Shown here piece by piece: positions 589 through 5,625 of a DNA stretch of 64,000 bases. The stretch spans positions 1,667 to 65,666 of the IMG/VR virus record IMGVR_UViG_3300030106_006201. The stretch is one strand, 5' to 3'. The notes under the pieces are model-generated. The model had not been told where the DNA came from. It did not search any database and saw only the letters and a program-made list of their open reading frames with translations. Every line of letters begins with the position of its first letter. Position 1 is the first letter of the stretch. This DNA comes from a virus (taxonomy: Duplodnaviria; Caudoviricetes). The translations under genes and the position numbers were made by a program.

Positions 589-1695
589 ATGGGTAGGGAT
601 TTGGCGAACCGGGCCGCCCAGCAGGTGGAGCGGCAGCAGCAGGGCGGCGTCGATCTGAAACAGCAGATCGTGTCGATGGAGGCGCAGTTTCAGCGGGCCA
701 TGCCGAAGGGCCTGGAGGCCAAGCAGTTGATCCGCGACATTTTCACCTGCATGTCGAACACCCCCAAGTTGGCGATCTGCGAACCGAAATCGGTTCTGGG
801 CGCGGCCATGACATGCAGCCAGCTCGGTTTGCGGCCGGGGGTGGGGGCGCTGGGGCACGCCTGGATTCTGCCGTTCTGGGATTCGAAAACCGGGGGGCAG
901 CGCGCCCAACTGATCATCGGGTACAAGGGCTACATCGAGCTGGGACACCGCTCGGAGCAGATCGCGTCGCTGCATTCACGGATCGTGTACGCCAACGACG
1001 AGTTCGACATGGAGTACGGTGCGGCTGAGGACCGGTGGGTGCACAAACCGTATTTCACGGTGGGGCATGACGAGCCGGGCGCGCCGCGCCTGTTCTACGC
1101 GGTGGGCCGCCTGGCTAACGGCGGCTATTCGCTGGCCGACCCGATGACGCTGCGGCAGATGGAGCAGCACAGGGACCGGTTCGCGATGGCGCGCGACAAG
1201 CAGCGAAACGTGGTGGGGCCGTGGCGCGACCACTTCGAGGCCATGTCGCAGAAAACGATGCTGCTGCGGCTGATGGCGCTGATGCCGAAGTCGACGGAGA
1301 TAAGCCGGGCGTTGGACAACGACGGGGCGGTGCGCGTCGACTTGGACCCGGGTGCGATTGACGAGCCTGCCCACATCGACGGCGAGGTCATCGTCGACGA
1401 CGAGGCCGCGCCTGATGCGGGCCAGCCGGAGCGTGAACGCGTCGAGGTGCAGCAGCCGGCCCGCGACACTGGCGGCGACACCACCCAATCCGCTACCATG
1501 ATCACGGAACGGCAGTTGACGGCGATCAACACGGCGCTGTCGAAAGAGGGGCTCGGCGGCAACACCGCCGAGCAGCGAGAAGCCAAACTAGCGTGGCTCA
1601 CCCAAGCTGTCGGCCGCGAAATCGGCTCCACGAAAGATCTGACTCAGGCCGAAGCCACGGACCTGATCAGCCTACTGAAAGGCGACACCAAATGA
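589..1695 (+). CDS. recT: RecT-like ssDNA annealing protein
   Basis: SVLGAAMTCSQLGLRP...AQLIIGYKGYIEL...W..HFEAMSQKT motifs; ATG at 589. Confidence 0.9.
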   Translation: MGRDLANRAAQQVERQQQGGVDLKQQIVSMEAQFQRAMPKGLEAKQLIRDIFTCMSNTPKLAICEPKSVLGAAMTCSQLGLRPGVGALGHAWILPFWDSKTGGQRAQLIIGYKGYIELGHRSEQIASLHSRIVYANDEFDMEYGAAEDRWVHKPYFTVGHDEPGAPRLFYAVGRLANGGYSLADPMTLRQMEQHRDRFAMARDKQRNVVGPWRDHFEAMSQKTMLLRLMALMPKSTEISRALDNDGAVRVDLDPGAIDEPAHIDGEVIVDDEAAPDAGQPERERVEVQQPARDTGGDTTQSATMITERQLTAINTALSKEGLGGNTAEQREAKLAWLTQAVGREIGSTKDLTQAEATDLISLLKGDTK

Positions 1696-1964
1696 GCGGT
1701 ACCCGGCCCCTTCTGGTCGACCAGGACGAGAACGAGCACGGCGAATTTTGGGTGCGGCTGCGCGGTGGGAACGGCATGAAAACGTTCACCTCCGAAATGC
1801 ACCCCACCCGCTCCAACGCGGTGCGCGCCGCCCGCGCCTACATCGCCGCCATCGAGCCCGTGCCCGTCATCTTCACCTACTGGACCGGGAAACTGCCCGA
1901 CCGGGACCAAACCCGCAAAGTGCGGGCCGCCGAGAAAGTCACCGAACGGTTCCACGGGGCATGA
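1692..1964 (+). CDS. DUF1508/YegP-like small protein
   Basis: GEFWVRLRGGNG..TSE....SNAVRA pattern; ATGA overlap with recT. Confidence 0.55.
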   Translation: MSGTRPLLVDQDENEHGEFWVRLRGGNGMKTFTSEMHPTRSNAVRAARAYIAAIEPVPVIFTYWTGKLPDRDQTRKVRAAEKVTERFHGA

Positions 1965-4207
1965 CCGGCGACGACTACCGCCAGTTCCTGGCGCGCAAGC
2001 AGGTGCGCGCCGAGCAGGCCGGCCCCGACGTGTCCCCGGGCGATGTGAACGGGTTCCTGCACCCGTGGCAGCGCGAGATCGTGGCGTGGGCGGTGAAGGT
2101 TGGTCGGGCCGCGCTGTGGGAGGACACAGGGCTGGGAAAGACGATCCAGCAGCTCGAATGGGCGCGCCTCGCGGGCGGGCCTGCGCTGATCATCGCCCCG
2201 TTGGCGGTGTGCCAGCAGACGGCTCGCGAGGCCCGCAAGCTGGGCATACTCGCCGAGTATGTGCGCGACCCTGCAGAGTTGGCCGCAACACCCGCCGACA
2301 TGCACATCACCAACTACGAACGGGTGGCCGCGTTCGACCCGGCACAATTCAACGCCGTTGTGCTAGACGAGTGTTTTGCTGTCGGCACATCAGTGGACAC
2401 CCCTGACGGGCCTAAGTCAATTGAACTTTTCAATATAGGCGACCGGGTAGAATCGGCGGCAGGCCCCGCAACCGTCTGGGACGTTCACCGCAGAGAGGTT
2501 CCTTATGCCATCGCAGTCAAATCGCAAGGGCAGGAAGTTGTCTGCTCGCCCAACCACCCTTGGTTCACTCAGCGAGGATGGGTCGGGGCGCAGGATCTCG
2601 AACCGGGAGATTCACTTGTCGATACAGCCGAAGCCGTGCGAATGGTGCGGCGAGCCGTTCGCCAAGAAATCGGCGACAGCGCACCGCAAGGCGCGTTTCT
2701 GCAATCGGTCCTGCTCAGCGAAATGGCGAATGAGGCAGCCGGAACACCTTGCCAAAGTGCACAATCCGACAGTGGCCGCGAAGCGTGGGGCAAAGCGGGC
2801 GGAATGGTTTCGGTCGAGGTCTCCCGAGGCGCAAGCACAGCTGGAGCGCATACGAAACCTGCGGCCGATGCTGAATCCAGAAAGTCGAGCCAAGGTCTCC
2901 CGCCGATTGAAAGAGATCGGCCACAAACCTTCCGTGCGTGGGGGAAATGGTCAGGGCCCGACTGTGCCGCAGTCGATGCTGCTGGCAATGTTGGACGATT
3001 CGTGGCAGGCGGAGCTTGCAGTGTCTTTGGGGCCACGGGAACCCGGCTATCCGACGCACTACAAGCTCGACTTAGGCAACGCCGCAATGAAAGTCGGCAT
3101 CGAGCTGGATGGTCACTCGCATCACTCAAGGAAAGCGCTGGACCGCAAGAAAGACAACAAGCTGGCTTCGCTCGGGTGGACAGTATTGCGGTTCTGGAAC
3201 CATCAGATCCTCGACTGGATAGCAGCCGGGGCGCCGACGGGCGACTGTATTTCTACGACCTTGGAGTCACACGGCATCCGTCTTATTCGGTGAACGGCCA
3301 TCTAGTGCACAACAGTTCGATTCTCAAGCAGTCCGATGGGGCCACCCGGACGGCGCTGATCCGGTGGGCGCGTGATGTGCCGTTCCGGCTGGCGTGCTCA
3401 GCCACGCCGGCGCCGAACGACCCGGAAGAGTTGACGAGCCAGGCCGAATGGTTGGGGCGCATGACGCGCACCAACATGCTGGCCGCCTACTTTGTGCACG
3501 ACCAGGCGGGCTGGCGGATGAAGCATCACGCGTGGCGGCCCATGATGCAGTGGATGGCGCAGTGGGCGGTGGCGCTGACCCGGCCGTCCGACGTGGGCGG
3601 CGACGACACCGGATACGACCTGCCGGGCCTGAACATCGTGCCGCAGATCGTGCAGGCCGACATCGCCGCCGACGGGCAACTGTTCGCGACCAGCGTGGGC
3701 GGCGTTTCCGGGCGTGCCAAGGTGCGTAAGCAGACCCTTGCGGAGCGCGTGGAACGCGCCGCCAAGCTGGTCGCCGAAGAGCCCGGGCCGTGGATCATGT
3801 GGTGCGGGCTCAACGCCGAGGCCGACGCGCTGACCGCGGCGATACCGGGCGCGGTGAATGTGCACGGCTCGATGGATCCTGACGAGAAGGCGGCGAAACT
3901 GCTCGGTTTCGCGGACGGCGAGTTCGACGTGCTGGTCACCAAGCCGTCGATCGCTTCGCAGGGCCTCAACTATCAGCACTGTCACCGCATGGCCTTTGTG
4001 GGCTTGGGTGATTCGTACGAGCAGTACTACCAGGCGATCCGCCGCTGCTACCGATACGGGCAGACCGAGGTGGTGGACGCGCACGTGATCGTGTCCGATG
4101 TGGAACGTCAGATCGCGGCCAATGTGGCGCGCAAAGAGCAGCAGGCCCACCGAATCACCACAGAGCTGGTCGCCGAGATGCAGCGCAACCGGAAGGGGGC
4201 GGCGTGA
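1961..4207 (+). CDS. SNF2/SF2 helicase precursor containing an intein
   Basis: Walker A EDTGLGKT, ITNYER, Walker B VVLDE|S, SATPAPND, motif VI QAIRRCYRYGQ; ATGA overlap start. Confidence 0.9.
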   Translation: MTGDDYRQFLARKQVRAEQAGPDVSPGDVNGFLHPWQREIVAWAVKVGRAALWEDTGLGKTIQQLEWARLAGGPALIIAPLAVCQQTAREARKLGILAEYVRDPAELAATPADMHITNYERVAAFDPAQFNAVVLDECFAVGTSVDTPDGPKSIELFNIGDRVESAAGPATVWDVHRREVPYAIAVKSQGQEVVCSPNHPWFTQRGWVGAQDLEPGDSLVDTAEAVRMVRRAVRQEIGDSAPQGAFLQSVLLSEMANEAAGTPCQSAQSDSGREAWGKAGGMVSVEVSRGASTAGAHTKPAADAESRKSSQGLPPIERDRPQTFRAWGKWSGPDCAAVDAAGNVGRFVAGGACSVFGATGTRLSDALQARLRQRRNESRHRAGWSLASLKESAGPQERQQAGFARVDSIAVLEPSDPRLDSSRGADGRLYFYDLGVTRHPSYSVNGHLVHNSSILKQSDGATRTALIRWARDVPFRLACSATPAPNDPEELTSQAEWLGRMTRTNMLAAYFVHDQAGWRMKHHAWRPMMQWMAQWAVALTRPSDVGGDDTGYDLPGLNIVPQIVQADIAADGQLFATSVGGVSGRAKVRKQTLAERVERAAKLVAEEPGPWIMWCGLNAEADALTAAIPGAVNVHGSMDPDEKAAKLLGFADGEFDVLVTKPSIASQGLNYQHCHRMAFVGLGDSYEQYYQAIRRCYRYGQTEVVDAHVIVSDVERQIAANVARKEQQAHRITTELVAEMQRNRKGAA
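2372..3313 (+). mobile_element. Intein (314 aa) inserted in the helicase Walker B motif
   Basis: Block A CFAVGTSVDTPDG, block B CSPNHPWFT, block F FYDLGV, block G LVHN followed by Ser +1; removal restores VVLDESSILK. Confidence 0.93.
2505..3293 (+). CDS. Vsr/DUF559-like (putative homing) endonuclease nested in the +1 frame of the intein
   Basis: CEWC..FCNRSC Zn motif, NUMOD3-like NPESRAKVS, catalytic-type YKLDLG..KVGIELDGHSHH..DRKKD..L...GWTVLRFWN; GAGAGGT SD upstream of the ATG. Confidence 0.85.
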   Translation: MPSQSNRKGRKLSARPTTLGSLSEDGSGRRISNREIHLSIQPKPCEWCGEPFAKKSATAHRKARFCNRSCSAKWRMRQPEHLAKVHNPTVAAKRGAKRAEWFRSRSPEAQAQLERIRNLRPMLNPESRAKVSRRLKEIGHKPSVRGGNGQGPTVPQSMLLAMLDDSWQAELAVSLGPREPGYPTHYKLDLGNAAMKVGIELDGHSHHSRKALDRKKDNKLASLGWTVLRFWNHQILDWIAAGAPTGDCISTTLESHGIRLIR

Positions 4208-4685
4208 AAGTTGAGTGGCGGCCGGTGCCAGGGTTTGAAGGCAGATACGAAGTTAGCAACGATGGCCAGGTAGCCAGCTTGCCCACCAGAACATGGCCCA
4301 CGCGCCGAATAATCGCGGTTGTAATAGCTAAGCGTGGCGGCTATCCGACCGTCGTGCTGCATATGAACAACAAACAATACGCGCGCAAGATTCACCGCCT
4401 AGTCTGTGCAGCATTCAACGGTCCAGCCCCGGCAGGCGCCACCCTAGTCCGTCACCTGGACGGTGTTGTCACCAACAATGTTCCATCCAATCTGGCATGG
4501 GGGACGACTAGTGATAACTTGCTTGATGCGGTTCGCCACGGCACGCACTTCTCGGCAAAAAAACGCACTGCAAAATGGGCCACCCTTTGAGTGGCGACAA
4601 CCTTTATATCAACGCATCCAGTGGATCTCGGCAATGCCGGATCTGCCAGGCTGCCGCAAAACGGAGATATGCCAATGCTCGATGA
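4204..4685 (+). CDS. NUMOD4-HNH homing endonuclease, split by a -1 frameshift at an A7 tract (zero frame stops at 4590)
   Basis: WRPVPGFEGRYEVSNDG, HRLVC, VRHLDG..NN..NL; the -1 frame after 4563 gives THCKMGHPLSGDNLY..RQCRIC, matching the C-termini of the two other HNH genes. Confidence 0.8.
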
Positions 4686-5625
4686 CTATGTGACCGCCGA
4701 CGAGTCGGGCGAGAACTGGACGATGATGCTGGGCGACGCGTGCGAGCGTCTCGGTGAGATCGCCACGGACTCTGTCGATCTGAGTGTTCAAAGCCCTCCG
4801 TTCGCGGGCTTGTTCATCTATTCGCCGTCGCCGCGCGACCTCGGAAACTCAGCGAGCACCGGTGAGTTCATGCAACATTACTCGTTTGTGATCCGGGAGC
4901 AGTTGCGGGTGACCCGGCCTGGCCGTTGGGCGTGCGTGCATGTGCAGAACACGACGACCACGAAGGCCACGCACGGGCACATGGGGGTTGTCGACTTCCG
5001 GGGTGATGTGATCCGAGAGTTCGTGAAGGCCGGCTGGATTTTCGGCGGCGAAGTGACTGTGTTCAAAGATCCGCAGGCGCAGGCGATCCGAACGAAGGCG
5101 CACGCTTTGATGTTTGTGACGAAGAACCGGGACAGCGCGGGCTCGCGTCCCGCCTTGGCGGACTATTTGCTGCTGTTCCGCAAGCCGGGCGAGAACGCGG
5201 TGCCGATCAAAACCGATGTCACGAACGATGAGTGGATCGAGTGGGCCGGCCCGATCTGGTTGGATCACCACGACGGGGGCTGGCTGGCCGAGGACGGGCT
5301 GGTCTGCCCGGTGTGGTTCGGTATCCGGGAGTCGGACACGCTGAACGTGAAGGTGGCCCGCGAGGACGCCGACGAGCGTCACATTACGCCTTTGCAGTTG
5401 GCGTTCGTGGATCGTTGTGTGCGGCTGTGGTCGAATCCGGGCGAGCTGGTGTTGAGCCCGTTCGCGGGGATCGGCTCGGAGCTGTATCAGGCGGTGAAGC
5501 GTGGCCGCCGCGCGACTGGGGTGGAGTTGAAGCCCAGCTATTTCCACACGGCCGTGGAGAATTTGCGTCGCCTCGAATCCGAGATGGCGGCCCCAACCTT
5601 GTTCGATGAAAGTGAGGCGTTGTGA
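4675..5625 (+). CDS. DNA amino-methyltransferase (N4C/N6A, beta class)
   Basis: Motif IV SPPF precedes motif I VLSPFAGIGS; HITP; GGAG SD at 4663. Confidence 0.88.
   Translation: MLDDYVTADESGENWTMMLGDACERLGEIATDSVDLSVQSPPFAGLFIYSPSPRDLGNSASTGEFMQHYSFVIREQLRVTRPGRWACVHVQNTTTTKATHGHMGVVDFRGDVIREFVKAGWIFGGEVTVFKDPQAQAIRTKAHALMFVTKNRDSAGSRPALADYLLLFRKPGENAVPIKTDVTNDEWIEWAGPIWLDHHDGGWLAEDGLVCPVWFGIRESDTLNVKVAREDADERHITPLQLAFVDRCVRLWSNPGELVLSPFAGIGSELYQAVKRGRRATGVELKPSYFHTAVENLRRLESEMAAPTLFDESEAL

What the first reader, a model, noticed from the sequence alone, without database searches (positions are those of the whole stretch)
2372..3313. Dual-coding intein: homing endonuclease overprinted in the +1 frame inside the intein
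Seen: the helicase is interrupted at its Walker B motif (VVLDE|C...HN|SS) by a 314-aa intein with intact splicing blocks A, B, F and G. The roughly 190 aa between blocks B and F show no LAGLIDADG or HNH motif and look like a low-complexity, stop-free linker. The same DNA in the +1 frame (2505-3293, 262 aa) encodes a coherent protein with its own SD (GAGAGGT) and ATG. It has a CxxC..FCxxxC Zn motif, a NUMOD3-like helix and a Vsr/DUF559 catalytic domain (LDLG..IELDGHSHH..DRKKD..GWTVLRFWN). This ORF starts and stops entirely inside the intein. Established: canonical inteins carry the endonuclease in-frame, and Vsr-like enzymes act as homing nucleases. Inference: this is a mobile element in which splicing and homing are encoded on two overlapping frames, so the nuclease is a free protein, and both frames are held open over about 790 nt. 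Whether this architecture has been reported before needs a literature check.
Basis: partly seen in the sequence, partly recalled or inferred. Interest (0 to 1): 0.92.

Follow-up and report, generated by a model that had tools for sequence, protein, structure and literature searches.

The report
Helicase intein with overprinted homing endonuclease
A phage helicase gene carries a self-splicing intein, and the DNA-cutting enzyme thought to spread that intein is a separate gene written one base out of step over the same DNA; the layout is real, kept by selection and common, but the general design has been described recently.

Summary
The helicase (1961-4207) is split at Walker B (VVLDE|C...HN|SS) by a 314-aa class-1 intein (2372-3313). 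Mycobacterium phage Ramsey has the exact intein-less allele. The +1 frame (2505-3293) encodes a Zn-finger plus DUF559/Vsr-like nuclease (Pfam 5.9e-12; Z 10.2 to 3hrl, 9.7 to I-Bth0305I).

It is not a sequencing artefact. The same +1 nesting occurs in 4 of 4 cultured-phage records examined, 78 of 80 viral contigs and 28 of 30 full-length genome-contig relatives.

Selection switches frame. Helicase-frame wobble dominates up to about 2626, nuclease-frame wobble from 2627 to 3211, then helicase frame again. In the middle, dN/dS is 0.22 (nuclease frame) against 1.37 (helicase frame). Frame 0 is kept open: 0 of 5498 stop-prone sites carry T. Two free-standing relatives have lost it.

Corynebacterium phages phi673 and phi674 are a natural intein-plus/intein-minus pair.

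The nuclease start is uncertain (ATG 2505 or TTG 2616). The architecture is not new: 2025-2026 preprints describe out-of-frame intein endonucleases. This scan has also found the same thing on other DNA many times. This same-strand +1 Vsr-like family at Walker B appears in no paper my searches found.

The parts
1961..2371 (+). N-extein of the SF2/SNF2-like helicase, ending in Walker B VVLDE
   Evidence: ORF and translation. Aligns to Ramsey gp65 up to VVLDE. PHROG DNA helicase match for the whole protein.
2372..3313 (+). Class-1 intein, 314 aa, frame 0 (Cys1 ... His-Asn, +1 Ser)
   Evidence: Clean 314-aa gap against Ramsey. Hint_2, Intein_splicing and PT-HINT matches. C1, H62, V312, H313 and N314 invariant in 53 sequences. 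Profile hits 2lwy at 7e-21 and gp41-1 intein at 2.2e-18.
2372..2671 (+). Intein N-terminal HINT lobe (aa 1-100), with block B ..SPNHPWFT..
   Evidence: AlphaFold2 pLDDT 95-98. Foldseek best match gp41-1 intein 6riz, E 1.1e-6. Helicase-frame dN/dS 0.31 against 0.97 in the nuclease frame over 2372-2626.
2672..3151 (+). Frame-0 linker (intein aa 101-260): stop-free, rich in A, G, S and R, predicted disordered. It occupies the slot where canonical inteins carry the endonuclease domain.
   Evidence: pLDDT 41-59. Composition. No Pfam nuclease in frame 0. Helicase-frame dN/dS 1.37. Kept open: 0 T at 61 stop-prone sites, chance 6e-6.
3152..3313 (+). Intein C-terminal HINT lobe (aa 261-314), blocks F and G, ending LVHN
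   Evidence: pLDDT 83-98. Helicase-frame dN/dS 0.23 against 0.90 in the nuclease frame over 3216-3313.
2505..3293 (+). +1-frame ORF, 262 aa: the Vsr/DUF559-like putative homing endonuclease, wholly inside the intein
   Evidence: ORF listing. DUF559 E 5.9e-12. 176 homologs. Model pLDDT 83.
2493..2507 (+). GAGAGGT Shine-Dalgarno-like motif plus ATG: candidate start 1
   Evidence: Sequence. ATG present before the Zn finger in 67 of 76 loci against 38.4 expected; SD motifs enriched.
2605..2618 (+). GGGAG plus TTG: candidate start 2, giving a 225-aa product that begins 7 codons before the Zn finger
   Evidence: Sequence. P0001 is this 225-aa form of the window's ORF, and the 88%-identical P0002 starts with M at the same place. 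Nuclease-frame selection begins only at about 2627.
2637..2726 (+). CxxC...FCxxxC zinc-finger module (C45, C48, C66, C70), FCS-like
   Evidence: Alignment A1. Profile match to FCS zinc fingers 2w0t at E 0.003 and 2l8e at 0.013. pLDDT above 90.
2727..2939 (+). Helical region of the nuclease (aa 75-145), presumed DNA-binding
   Evidence: Helices H68-H137 at pLDDT 84-95. Conserved columns in A1. No PDB fold match for this part. The DNA-binding role is inferred.
2952..3224 (+). Vsr/DUF559/EDxHD-like catalytic domain (aa about 150-240). Catalytic motif E200-x-D202-G-x-x-H206 ... D213-x-K-K at 3102-3152; GWTVLRFWN at 3174-3200.
   Evidence: Pfam DUF559 on residues 185-237. Invariant E200, D202, G203, H206, D213, G224, W225, L228, R229, F230, N232 in 37 sequences. 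VIA-align Z 10.2 to 3hrl, 9.7 to 3r3p_A, 8.2 to 1cw0.
3161..3215 (+). Doubly constrained overlap. The nuclease GWxVLRFxN motif in +1 and the first strand of the intein C-lobe (..RVDSIAVLE..) in frame 0 use the same bases.
   Evidence: Lowest variability at all three codon positions, 0.34/0.13/0.14. Alignments in both frames. dN 0.16 and 0.27.
3314..4207 (+). C-extein of the helicase, starting SSILKQSDG, with Helicase_C
   Evidence: 77.8% identical to cluster-F-like Mycobacterium phage helicases. Helicase_C match. Alignment.

Best explanation
This is a mobile, two-gene intein. The helicase mRNA is translated in frame 0 straight through the 942-nt insert. The two HINT lobes (intein aa 1-100 and 261-314) fold together, and the 160-aa stretch between them is a disordered spacer. 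Protein splicing then removes the insert and restores the Walker B / motif II sequence VVLDE-SS of the helicase.

The same DNA, read one base later, is a separate cistron with its own ribosome-binding site and start (ATG 2505 or TTG 2616). It encodes a free-standing endonuclease of 225-262 aa, made of an FCS-like zinc finger, a helical DNA-binding region and a Vsr/DUF559 (EDxHD-like) catalytic domain.

This nuclease most likely cuts intein-less helicase alleles near the DE|S(C) codons. Recombinational repair from the intein-bearing copy then copies the intein and nuclease together (homing).

Shown here: the anatomy, conservation of the +1 nesting, purifying selection on each frame in its own segment, selection keeping frame 0 open, and the recent presence/absence polymorphism. 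Inferred: translation from an internal start, site-specific cleavage, homing and splicing.
For: 1. Anatomy. The insertion is precise against the intein-less Ramsey allele. HINT matches come from Pfam, a PDB profile search and fold search. The nuclease is supported by Pfam, a PDB profile search and fold search.

2. Conservation of the +1 nesting.
- 4 of 4 annotated phage records examined, out of 40 records that hit.
- 78 of 80 IMG/VR loci, which are the best 80 of 278 relatives, with 72 distinct nuclease sequences.
- 28 of 30 full-length relatives in genome contigs.
- In every nested case the nuclease is +1 to the host frame.
- 65 of the 78 nested viral loci show both junction motifs by my regular expression: DE|C in 63, and HN followed by C in 38 or S in 27.

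3. Selection, measured on 22 distinct loci. The most variable codon position is helicase-frame position 3 up to about 2626, nuclease-frame position 3 for 2627-3211, then helicase-frame position 3 again. Median NG86 dN/dS in the middle is 0.22 in the nuclease frame against 1.37 in the helicase frame. In the lobes it is 0.31 and 0.23 in the helicase frame against 0.97 and 0.90 in the nuclease frame.

4. Frame 0 is held open. 0 of 5498 stop-prone sites carry a third-position T, against 3520 of 14670 other sites. The two free-standing relatives have T at 14 of 85 (L023) and 8 of 62 (L084) such sites. L023 still shows decayed intein remnants with stops around an intact nuclease ORF.

5. Separate initiation. 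An ATG lies between the last +1 stop and the Zn finger in 67 of 76 loci, against 38.4 expected (0 of 200,000 simulations reach 67). SD matches of 5 nt or more occur at 25 of 67 candidate starts, against 6.1% at control ATGs, or about 12% allowing for the two candidates I scored per locus.

6. Mobility.
- phi673 and phi674 helicase genes differ by an exact 906-nt intein and 17 of 1605 extein bases.
- 7 of those 17 lie in the 78 nt just after the junction, including the +1 codon (Val in phi674, Cys in phi673).
- The nuclease core is more similar than the C-extein in 223 of 231 locus pairs.
- Intein GC (0.37-0.59) is compressed relative to flank GC (0.34-0.67). In the window it is 0.59 against 0.67.
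- None of the Mycobacterium phage records that share the helicase appear among the 40 nuclease hits.
Against: - No experiment or expression data. No RNA run holds the stretch, and no cleavage, splicing or homing assay exists for any member that I found.
- The start codon is ambiguous, and ATG 2505 is not conserved in position across the close clade.
- No sigma-70-like promoter lies inside the gene, so expression would depend on the helicase transcript.
- dS is saturated (medians 1.1-1.8) and pairs were filtered to 0<dS<3, so the dN/dS values are rough.
- Higher conservation of the nuclease than of the exteins could partly reflect double constraint rather than transfer.
- The sequence link to the one characterised homing enzyme of this fold, I-Bth0305I, is marginal (E 0.025). 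Foldseek E-values for the nuclease model were all above 0.001.
- 13 of the 78 nested viral loci did not yield both junction motifs with my regular expression, and I did not resolve them by hand.
Confidence: 0.8

Rival explanations
1. Artefact. The endonuclease is really in frame with the intein, and this copy is explained by two compensating sequencing or assembly indels.
For: Canonical inteins carry the nuclease in frame. The record is a metagenome assembly.
Against: The same +1 relation holds in 4 of 4 cultured-phage records, 78 of 80 viral loci and 28 of 30 genome loci. Contigs of two runs from two studies are identical over 2200-3500, one at depth 97. Codon-position patterns show long-term selection in both frames.
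Confidence: 0.01
2. Decaying relic. A once in-frame, or once free-standing, nuclease gene is now a non-functional remnant that happens to remain open, and the intein is effectively a mini-intein with junk in its loop.
For: Homing endonuclease genes commonly decay after fixation. The preprints discuss this fate. No expression data exist.
Against: Nuclease-frame dN/dS is 0.22 in the middle segment. There are 19 invariant columns, including the catalytic E, D, H and D, across 37 sequences with 39-88% identity to the window's ORF. The ORF is intact in all 78 nested viral loci. It even outlives the intein in L023.
Confidence: 0.03
3. The nuclease is not initiated internally. It is made by programmed +1 ribosomal frameshifting out of the intein frame, giving an N-extein/intein-N-lobe/nuclease fusion.
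For: The +1 frame is open for 18 codons upstream of ATG 2505. The leader of about 40 aa evolves under the intein frame. One metagenomic protein, P0121, has N-extein, intein N-lobe and nuclease in a single frame.
Against: ATG and SD motifs are strongly enriched just upstream of the Zn finger. In many distant relatives the +1 frame opens only 3-20 codons before the Zn finger, directly after a stop and with an ATG, which leaves little room for a shift site. I did not look for a conserved slippery motif. P0121 is 1 protein against 176.
Confidence: 0.06
4. The +1 gene is an independent selfish or host-useful nuclease that merely lodges in the intein's tolerant loop. It does not mobilise the intein: it cuts elsewhere, or serves in phage-phage competition or DNA repair, as Vsr does.
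For: Free-standing relatives exist (L023, L084, L108, L121). DUF559 proteins are common bacterial genes with unknown roles (L123-L171). Target specificity is untested.
Against: Nearly all full-length relatives found sit in the same slot of inteins at the same kind of site, DE|C of P-loop NTPases. The unit is present or absent as a whole in phi673/phi674, with flank changes clustered at the junction. The nuclease ORF begins and ends inside the intein in most loci.
Confidence: 0.1

Closest known systems
Non-canonical actinobacteriophage inteins with a homing endonuclease in a separate ORF (Gosselin, Arsenault and Gogarten, bioRxiv 10.1101/2025.01.02.630785; abstract, sections 8 and 15 and found passages read)
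   Same: An intein whose in-frame 'endonuclease slot' is unstructured, while another reading of the same DNA encodes a complete endonuclease. They propose origin by invasion of an intein by a free-standing endonuclease gene. One of their types is also Vsr-like, about 267 aa, with a long helical N-terminal part.
   Different: Their Vsr-like endonuclease is on the antisense strand. Their same-strand case is an endonuclease VII-like gene in frame 3. Their hosts are DNA polymerase, minor capsid, terminase and thymidylate synthase, not helicases. The family here is same-strand +1, sits at Walker B of helicases and clamp loaders, and is found mostly outside actinophages. Their supplementary tables could not be opened, so a helicase case there cannot be excluded.
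Cyanobacterial DnaX intein with an out-of-frame LAGLIDADG endonuclease (Phillips, DeSimone and Gogarten, bioRxiv 10.64898/2026.09.14.751524, abstract and section 17 read; they credit Gorbalenya 1998, which I did not see)
   Same: A same-strand overlapping ORF inside an intein, with low dN/dS in the endonuclease frame and raised dN/dS in the extein frame over the overlap. The host is a P-loop AAA+ clamp-loader subunit, as in the L053 group here.
   Different: A LAGLIDADG enzyme in a +2 ORF, in cellular genomes. Here the enzyme is Vsr/DUF559-like with a zinc finger in +1, mainly in phages.
Fractured genes: split inteins with a free-standing Vsr-like or GIY-YIG endonuclease gene between the halves, including gp41-1 (Dassa et al. 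2009, PMC2677866; found passages read)
   Same: A Vsr-like endonuclease gene with its own start, on the same strand, inside an intein-coding region of phage DNA-metabolism genes including helicases. The endonuclease 3' end overlaps the downstream intein part. The splicing domain here is most like gp41-1.
   Different: There the host frame is broken and the halves splice in trans. Here frame 0 is continuous and kept open by selection, so it is a contiguous cis-splicing intein.
I-Bth0305I, prototype of the EDxHD homing endonucleases (Taylor et al. 2011, PMC3239194; found passages read; PDB 3r3p)
   Same: A catalytic domain of the same fold (Z 9.7, rmsd 2.8 over 88 residues), an E..D..H..D motif, similar length (266 aa) and an N-terminal DNA-binding region. 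It is a proven homing enzyme.
   Different: It is encoded in a group I intron of recA. Sequence similarity is marginal (E 0.025). No FCS-like zinc finger is reported in the passages read.
Canonical bifunctional inteins such as PI-SceI
   Same: A HINT splicing domain interrupted at the same topological point by the mobility function. The model matches the PI-SceI splicing domain weakly.
   Different: There the endonuclease is an in-frame domain of the same polypeptide. Here it is a second polypeptide from a second frame.

Membership tests
Intein (class 1, HINT superfamily) | Nucleophilic Cys/Ser at position 1, block B His, C-terminal His-Asn, and Cys/Ser/Thr as the first C-extein residue | tested here: met
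   C1, H62, H313 and N314 are invariant in 53 sequences. The +1 residue is Ser in the window, and S (27) or C (38) in the 65 loci with both junctions found.
Intein (class 1, HINT superfamily) | HINT fold and sequence-family membership | tested here: met
   Profile search: 2lwy at 7e-21 and gp41-1 intein at 2.2e-18. Foldseek: 27 matches at E<=0.001, and every listed match at that level is an intein, a bacterial intein-like domain or a hedgehog Hint domain. Pfam Hint_2 scores 29.8 bits against a cut-off of 28.4 for the isolated insert; Intein_splicing is below its cut-off (28.8 against 35.8).
Intein (class 1, HINT superfamily) | Precise in-frame insertion in a conserved site, absent from close homologs | tested here: met
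   Ramsey gp65 lacks exactly the 314 aa. phi674 lacks exactly the 906 nt present in phi673.
Intein (class 1, HINT superfamily) | Protein splicing activity | not testable with these tools
   Inferred from intact motifs, from the open frame, and from purifying selection on the exteins (helicase-frame dN/dS 0.23-0.39).
DUF559 / Vsr-like PD-(D/E)xK nucleases (PF04480) | Pfam score above the gathering threshold | tested here: met
   45.9 bits against 20.6, E 5.9e-12.
DUF559 / Vsr-like PD-(D/E)xK nucleases (PF04480) | Vsr-type fold of the catalytic domain | tested here: met
   Z 10.2 to 3hrl (rmsd 2.4, 85 aligned), 8.2 to 1cw0 and 7.8 to 1vsr. Foldseek E-values alone were weak, 0.13-0.9.
EDxHD homing endonucleases (I-Bth0305I family) | Conserved E, D, H, D catalytic residues | tested here: met
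   E200, D202, H206 and D213 are invariant in 37 sequences. The motif definition is taken from passages of PMC3239194.
EDxHD homing endonucleases (I-Bth0305I family) | Detectable sequence homology to I-Bth0305I | tested here: inconclusive
   Profile E 0.025 and 17.1 bits to 3r3p_A. Structural Z 9.7.
EDxHD homing endonucleases (I-Bth0305I family) | Site-specific cleavage of the element-free allele | not testable with these tools
   No assay found for any member. Proposed under next steps.
Non-canonical inteins with an overlapping out-of-frame endonuclease gene | A complete endonuclease ORF inside the intein bounds in another frame, with no in-frame endonuclease domain | tested here: met
   ORF 2505-3293 lies within 2372-3313. 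There is no nuclease family in frame 0. The frame-0 middle is disordered.
Non-canonical inteins with an overlapping out-of-frame endonuclease gene | Purifying selection on the endonuclease frame in the overlap | tested here: met
   Wobble-position switch. dN/dS 0.22 against 1.37.
Split intein / fractured gene (Dassa type) | Host reading frame interrupted, so that the two intein halves are separate polypeptides | tested here: not met
   Frame 0 is open through the whole insert in the window and in 78 of 80 viral loci.
Group I or II intron carrying a homing endonuclease gene | Ribozyme structure flanking the ORF | tested here: not met
   No Rfam match at E<=0.1 over 1900-4300. The insert is translated in frame, with HINT lobes at both ends.

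The most novel reading that the evidence does not exclude
This is not a transient accident. It is a large, old and evolutionarily stable family of bicistronic inteins specialised for the Walker B 'DE' codons of P-loop NTPases.

One founding event placed a zinc-finger/Vsr-like endonuclease gene in the +1 frame of a gp41-1-like mini-intein. The composite has since diversified, with nuclease identity falling to about 31%. It has spread through phages of Actinobacteria, Proteobacteria, Chloroflexi and others. It has jumped between unrelated NTPase families (SNF2-like, ResIII/DEAD-like helicases, helicase-methylase fusions and AAA+ clamp loaders). It has also shed free-standing endonuclease genes such as L023.

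On this reading it is the long-sought living intermediate between invasion of a mini-intein by a free-standing endonuclease gene and both end states: in-frame bifunctional inteins and split inteins. It would also show that out-of-frame coding can be a stable solution rather than a stepping stone.
Probability: 0.5. Interest if true: 0.7.

Novelty: new variant of a known kind. Interest (0 to 1): 0.55.

Why it matters
Inteins are textbook examples of one polypeptide with two functions, splicing and homing. Here the two functions belong to two genes that share the same bases. Both frames are demonstrably under selection, and the selected frame changes twice within 942 nt.

This gives a natural system for several questions:
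- how a free-standing homing endonuclease gene becomes part of an intein;
- how split inteins arise;
- how much sequence freedom an intein loop has, since a 160-aa disordered insert is apparently tolerated;
- how overlapping genes evolve under double constraint.

It also matters for annotation. Gene callers report either the helicase or the nuclease, never both. In the four phage records examined (phi673, MR14, CP-T1 and Vibrio phage 1.194.O) no separate nuclease gene is annotated under the match, and the 2018 phi673 paper notes the intein only.

The cultured pair phi673/phi674 on Corynebacterium glutamicum ATCC 13032 makes the homing hypothesis directly testable.

Tried and rejected
- Sequencing-error explanation: rejected.
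- Intron explanation: rejected. There is no Rfam match.
- DNA-level search of the intein against phage records found nothing. Only protein-level searches found relatives.
- The search for related loci with the single protein gave only weak N-terminal matches in viral contigs (L007-L012) and in metagenome contigs (L172, L173). These were not used. The alignment query A1 was needed.
- Search for in-frame fusions ('longer'): one protein only, P0121. Its DNA could not be fetched, so I cannot tell whether it is a real fused or split form or an assembly frameshift.
- Foldseek of the nuclease model against the PDB gave no match at E<=0.001. The VIA-align second look gave the Z scores used. The N-terminal two thirds of the nuclease has no recognised fold match.
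- NUMOD3 was not detected by Pfam.
- Promoter scan: 0 sigma-70-like sites in 1600-4700. Four terminator-like sites is within the shuffle expectation.
- Sequencing runs: no RNA holder is listed, so nothing can be said on expression. No contig joins across the intein, so an intein-less allele in the same samples was neither seen nor excluded. X16 and X17 hold only fragments.
- Literature: six searches found no paper describing a same-strand +1 Vsr-like endonuclease in a helicase Walker-B intein. Gorbalenya 1998 is not in the library, and I know it only through citations in the two preprints. For the ShiLan paper (PMC11855218) I saw only the listing and the start of the abstract.
- Rows dropped. 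One search used 22 of 28 loci (WIN plus L013-L039). Dropped were L013 (no C junction found by my regular expression), L023 (free-standing), L030 (N junction mis-set, length out of range), and L027, L032 and L033 (duplicates). One search kept only pairs with 0<dS<3, which left 38 to 231 of 231 pairs depending on zone. One search counted each distinct nuclease ORF once and left L005 (the window itself) out. One search left out L044 (cut by the contig end), L023, L084 and L005.
- In one search my first count of junction-flank identity with Ramsey used a wrong offset. One search corrects it: 22/30 and 18/30.

Full report
**What is in the window.** The + strand carries a helicase gene at 1961-4207. 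Its product matches phage DNA-helicase PHROGs and Helicase_C. Between the Walker B residues VVLDE and the continuation SSILKQSDG lies a 942-nt insert (2372-3313, 314 aa) that begins CFAVGT and ends LVHN. The helicase of Mycobacterium phage Ramsey is 77.8% identical over the C-extein. It aligns with one clean gap of exactly these 314 residues. The window is almost the whole of a 65,666-bp IMG/VR virus record with direct terminal repeats. GC falls from 0.67-0.72 in the flanks to 0.55-0.63 in the insert.

**Frame 0 is an intein without an endonuclease domain.**
- The insert matches Hint_2, Intein_splicing and PT-HINT, and no nuclease family.
- In an alignment of 53 frame-0 inserts from related loci (A2), C1, H62, V312, H313 and N314 are invariant.
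- The A2 profile hits a bacterial intein-like domain (2lwy, 7e-21) and the gp41-1 intein (6qaz, 2.2e-18).
- AlphaFold2 gives pLDDT 95-98 for residues 1-100 and 83-98 for 261-314, but only 41-59 for 101-260.
- Foldseek's best match is the gp41-1 intein (6riz, E 1.1e-6, rmsd 1.7 over 86 columns).

The helicase-frame product is therefore a mini-intein fold with a 160-aa spacer rich in A, G, S and R.

**Frame +1 is a nuclease gene.**
- ORF 2505-3293 (262 aa) matches DUF559 above threshold (E 5.9e-12) and MTES_1575 below it.
- A database search finds 176 relatives.
- In an alignment of 37 of them (A1), E200, D202, G203, H206, D213 and the GW.VLRF.N motif are invariant.
- The A1 profile hits the DUF559 structure 3hrl (1.7e-12), FCS zinc fingers (2w0t, 0.003) and, marginally, I-Bth0305I (3r3p, 0.025).
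- The AlphaFold2 model has mean pLDDT 83. Residues 1-40 are disordered and most of the rest is above 90.
- Foldseek E-values were weak. VIA-align gives Z 10.2 to 3hrl, 9.7 to the I-Bth0305I catalytic domain and 8.2 to Vsr, all over residues about 150-259.
- The N-terminal zinc finger and helical part have no fold match.

**The arrangement is conserved, so it is not an error.**
- tblastn of the nuclease against phage records hit 40 records, all under genes annotated as helicase or hypothetical.
- In all four records I examined, the nuclease ORF lies in the +1 frame of a helicase CDS that is open throughout, with junctions ..DE|CF.. and ..VHN|CHH. These are Corynebacterium phage phi673, Pseudomonas phage MR14, Vibrio phage CP-T1 and Vibrio phage 1.194.O.
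- An alignment-driven scan of IMG/VR found 278 relatives. Of the best 80 loci, 78 have the nuclease nested in the +1 frame of a host ORF of 535-1773 aa, with 72 distinct nuclease sequences.
- My regular expressions found both junction motifs in 65 of the 78: DE|C in 63, and +1 residue C in 38 and S in 27. The other 13 were not resolved.
- In genome contigs, 28 of 30 full-length relatives are nested the same way. A further 49 loci match only the 50-aa DUF559 core and are ordinary bacterial genes.
- Contigs of two runs from two studies carry 2200-3500 without a single difference. Both may be the source sample.

**Both frames are under selection, each in its own segment.**
- Data: 22 distinct loci of the window's clade. 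Six of 28 were dropped, as listed under Tried and rejected.
- The most variable codon position is helicase-frame position 3 from the N-extein up to about 2626. It becomes nuclease-frame position 3 from 2627 to 3211, and returns to helicase-frame position 3 from 3212 on.
- Median NG86 dN/dS follows the same pattern:

| Segment | Helicase frame | Nuclease frame |
|---|---|---|
| N-lobe | 0.31 | 0.97 |
| Middle (2637-3160) | 1.37 | 0.22 |
| C-lobe | 0.23 | 0.90 |

- dS is saturated, so these figures are rough.
- At 3161-3215 all three positions are nearly frozen. There the nuclease motif GWTVLRFWN and the first strand of the intein C-lobe (RVDSIAVLE) share the same bases.
- The switch points coincide with the first zinc-finger cysteine (2637) and with the end of the catalytic domain.

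**Frame 0 is actively kept open.**
- A helicase-frame stop arises when a nuclease codon ending in T precedes one starting AA, AG or GA.
- Over all distinct nested loci, 0 of 5498 such sites carry T, against 3520 of 14670 other sites.
- The chance of an open frame is 6e-6 for the window, and 8e-4 down to 1.6e-20 for the others.
- Two free-standing relatives serve as natural controls. L084 sits upstream of a terminase gene and has T at 8 of 62 risk sites. L023 has T at 14 of 85.
- In L023 the helicase frame still shows recognisable but stop-ridden remnants of the intein lobes around an intact 267-aa nuclease ORF.
- So the nuclease gene can outlive the intein, and without a host gene the second frame decays.

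**How the nuclease is probably expressed.**
- An ATG lies between the last +1 stop and the zinc finger in 67 of 76 loci, against 38.4 expected. None of 200,000 simulations reaches 67.
- SD matches of 5 nt or more occur at 25 of 67 candidate starts, against 6.1% of control ATGs, or about 12% allowing for the two candidates scored per locus.
- In many distant relatives the ATG is 2-10 codons before the first cysteine, with a strong SD.
- In the window two starts are possible: ATG 2505 with GAGAGGT, or TTG 2616 with GGGAG.
- The database holds the window's ORF as the 225-aa TTG form (P0001), and the 88%-identical P0002 has M at that position.
- The first roughly 40 residues of the long form are disordered and evolve under the intein frame.
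- No internal promoter was found, and no RNA data exist.
- A programmed +1 frameshift remains a minor rival. One protein, P0121, has N-extein, N-lobe and nuclease in a single frame.

**Evidence for mobility.**
- phi673 and phi674 infect the same C. glutamicum strain. Their helicase genes differ by an exact 906-nt intein and 17 of 1605 extein bases.
- Seven of these lie in the 78 nt after the junction, where about 0.8 would be expected by proportion (my arithmetic). They include the +1 codon, which is Val in phi674 (DEVH) and Cys in phi673 (DE|CH).
- The 2018 genome paper notes the intein in phi673 and its absence in phi674. The passages found do not mention a nuclease gene inside it.
- In the window's clade the nuclease core is more similar than the C-extein in 223 of 231 pairs. 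Intein GC is pulled toward the middle relative to flank GC.
- The Mycobacterium phages that share the helicase lack the nuclease.

**Host range of the element.** Pfam on eight host ORFs shows:
- SNF2-like and ResIII/DEAD-like helicases;
- helicase-methyltransferase fusions;
- in L053 (junction ..YLLDE|CF..HN|CHK), a clamp-loader-type AAA+ ATPase (DNA_pol3_delta2, AAA, RuvB_N).

The common denominator is therefore the Walker B DE motif, not one helicase family. Three hosts also carry a second, canonical LAGLIDADG intein.

**Comparison with what is known.**
- Out-of-frame or antisense intein endonucleases are described in two Gogarten-lab preprints, which credit Gorbalenya 1998. One covers actinophage inteins with antisense LAGLIDADG, antisense Vsr-like and frame-3 endonuclease VII-like genes. 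The other covers the cyanobacterial DnaX intein with a +2 LAGLIDADG ORF and the same dN/dS signature.
- Dassa et al. 2009 described Vsr-like endonuclease genes between split-intein halves.
- Taylor et al. 2011 proved homing-type cleavage for the related fold in I-Bth0305I.
- None of the six literature searches found the present combination: same strand, +1, zinc finger plus Vsr-like, at Walker B of helicases and clamp loaders. Supplements were closed.
- This scan has met the same layout before on other DNA. 150 notes in at least 113 genomes hold the search words, and the follow-ups shown reach the same verdict. No look-alike of this particular nuclease was indexed.

**Verdict.** Splicing, cleavage and homing remain inferred. 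The kind is known, this family is an undescribed variant of it, and a cultured phage pair exists to test it.

Noticed in passing
L053:2283-4385 (also L058, L068, L074, L082, L083, L085 by junction pattern): The same +1-nested nuclease/intein unit sits at Walker B (..LLDE|CF...HN|CH..) of a clamp-loader-type AAA+ ATPase (DNA_pol3_delta2, AAA, RuvB_N), not a helicase. The element has therefore crossed between NTPase families. Pfam was run on L053 only; the others are grouped by junction and size alone.
   Followed up: partly
L023:2787-3776: A free-standing 267-aa nuclease gene (57% identical), with no helicase nearby, is still surrounded by stop-ridden remnants of the intein lobes in the -1 frame. 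It looks like an endonuclease gene that outlived its intein.
   Followed up: yes
L001:1861-4371 and L174:1501-3105 (phages phi673 and phi674): A natural intein-plus/intein-minus pair with 99% identical exteins. The first C-extein codon is Val in the empty allele and Cys in the occupied one, and flank differences cluster just after the junction.
   Followed up: yes
P0121 (560 aa, metagenomic): A single protein in which helicase N-extein, intein N-lobe and the Vsr-like nuclease are in one frame, ending after the nuclease. It may be a fused or split variant, or an assembly frameshift. Its DNA could not be fetched.
   Followed up: partly
L017:1293-4661, L073:705-4811, L092:1116-5627: These host proteins carry a second intein upstream with an ordinary in-frame LAGLIDADG domain. 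Canonical and overprinted inteins therefore coexist in one gene.
   Followed up: no
L031:614-4783 and L013:2421-5666: The host is a helicase fused to an N6/N4 DNA methyltransferase. L031 has a further Hint_2 match at residues 989-1032, possibly another intein.
   Followed up: no
window 4204-4590: A 128-aa ORF starts at the helicase stop codon and lies directly before a DNA methyltransferase gene (4591-5625). In Ramsey an HNH endonuclease gene lies just upstream of the helicase instead. I did not check that.
   Followed up: no
window 2672-3151, frame 0 (alignment A2): The 'junk' linker of the intein has nearly invariant residues (L110, L230, Q231, R244). These are shadows of invariant nuclease codons read in the other frame, and a trap for anyone inferring function from conservation.
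   Followed up: partly
window 3314-3343 against Ramsey (L006): The 15 nt before the insertion site are 14/15 identical to the intein-less Ramsey allele. The 15 nt after it are only 7/15 identical although they encode the same SSILK peptide. Possible explanations are flank co-conversion or target-site immunity.
   Followed up: partly
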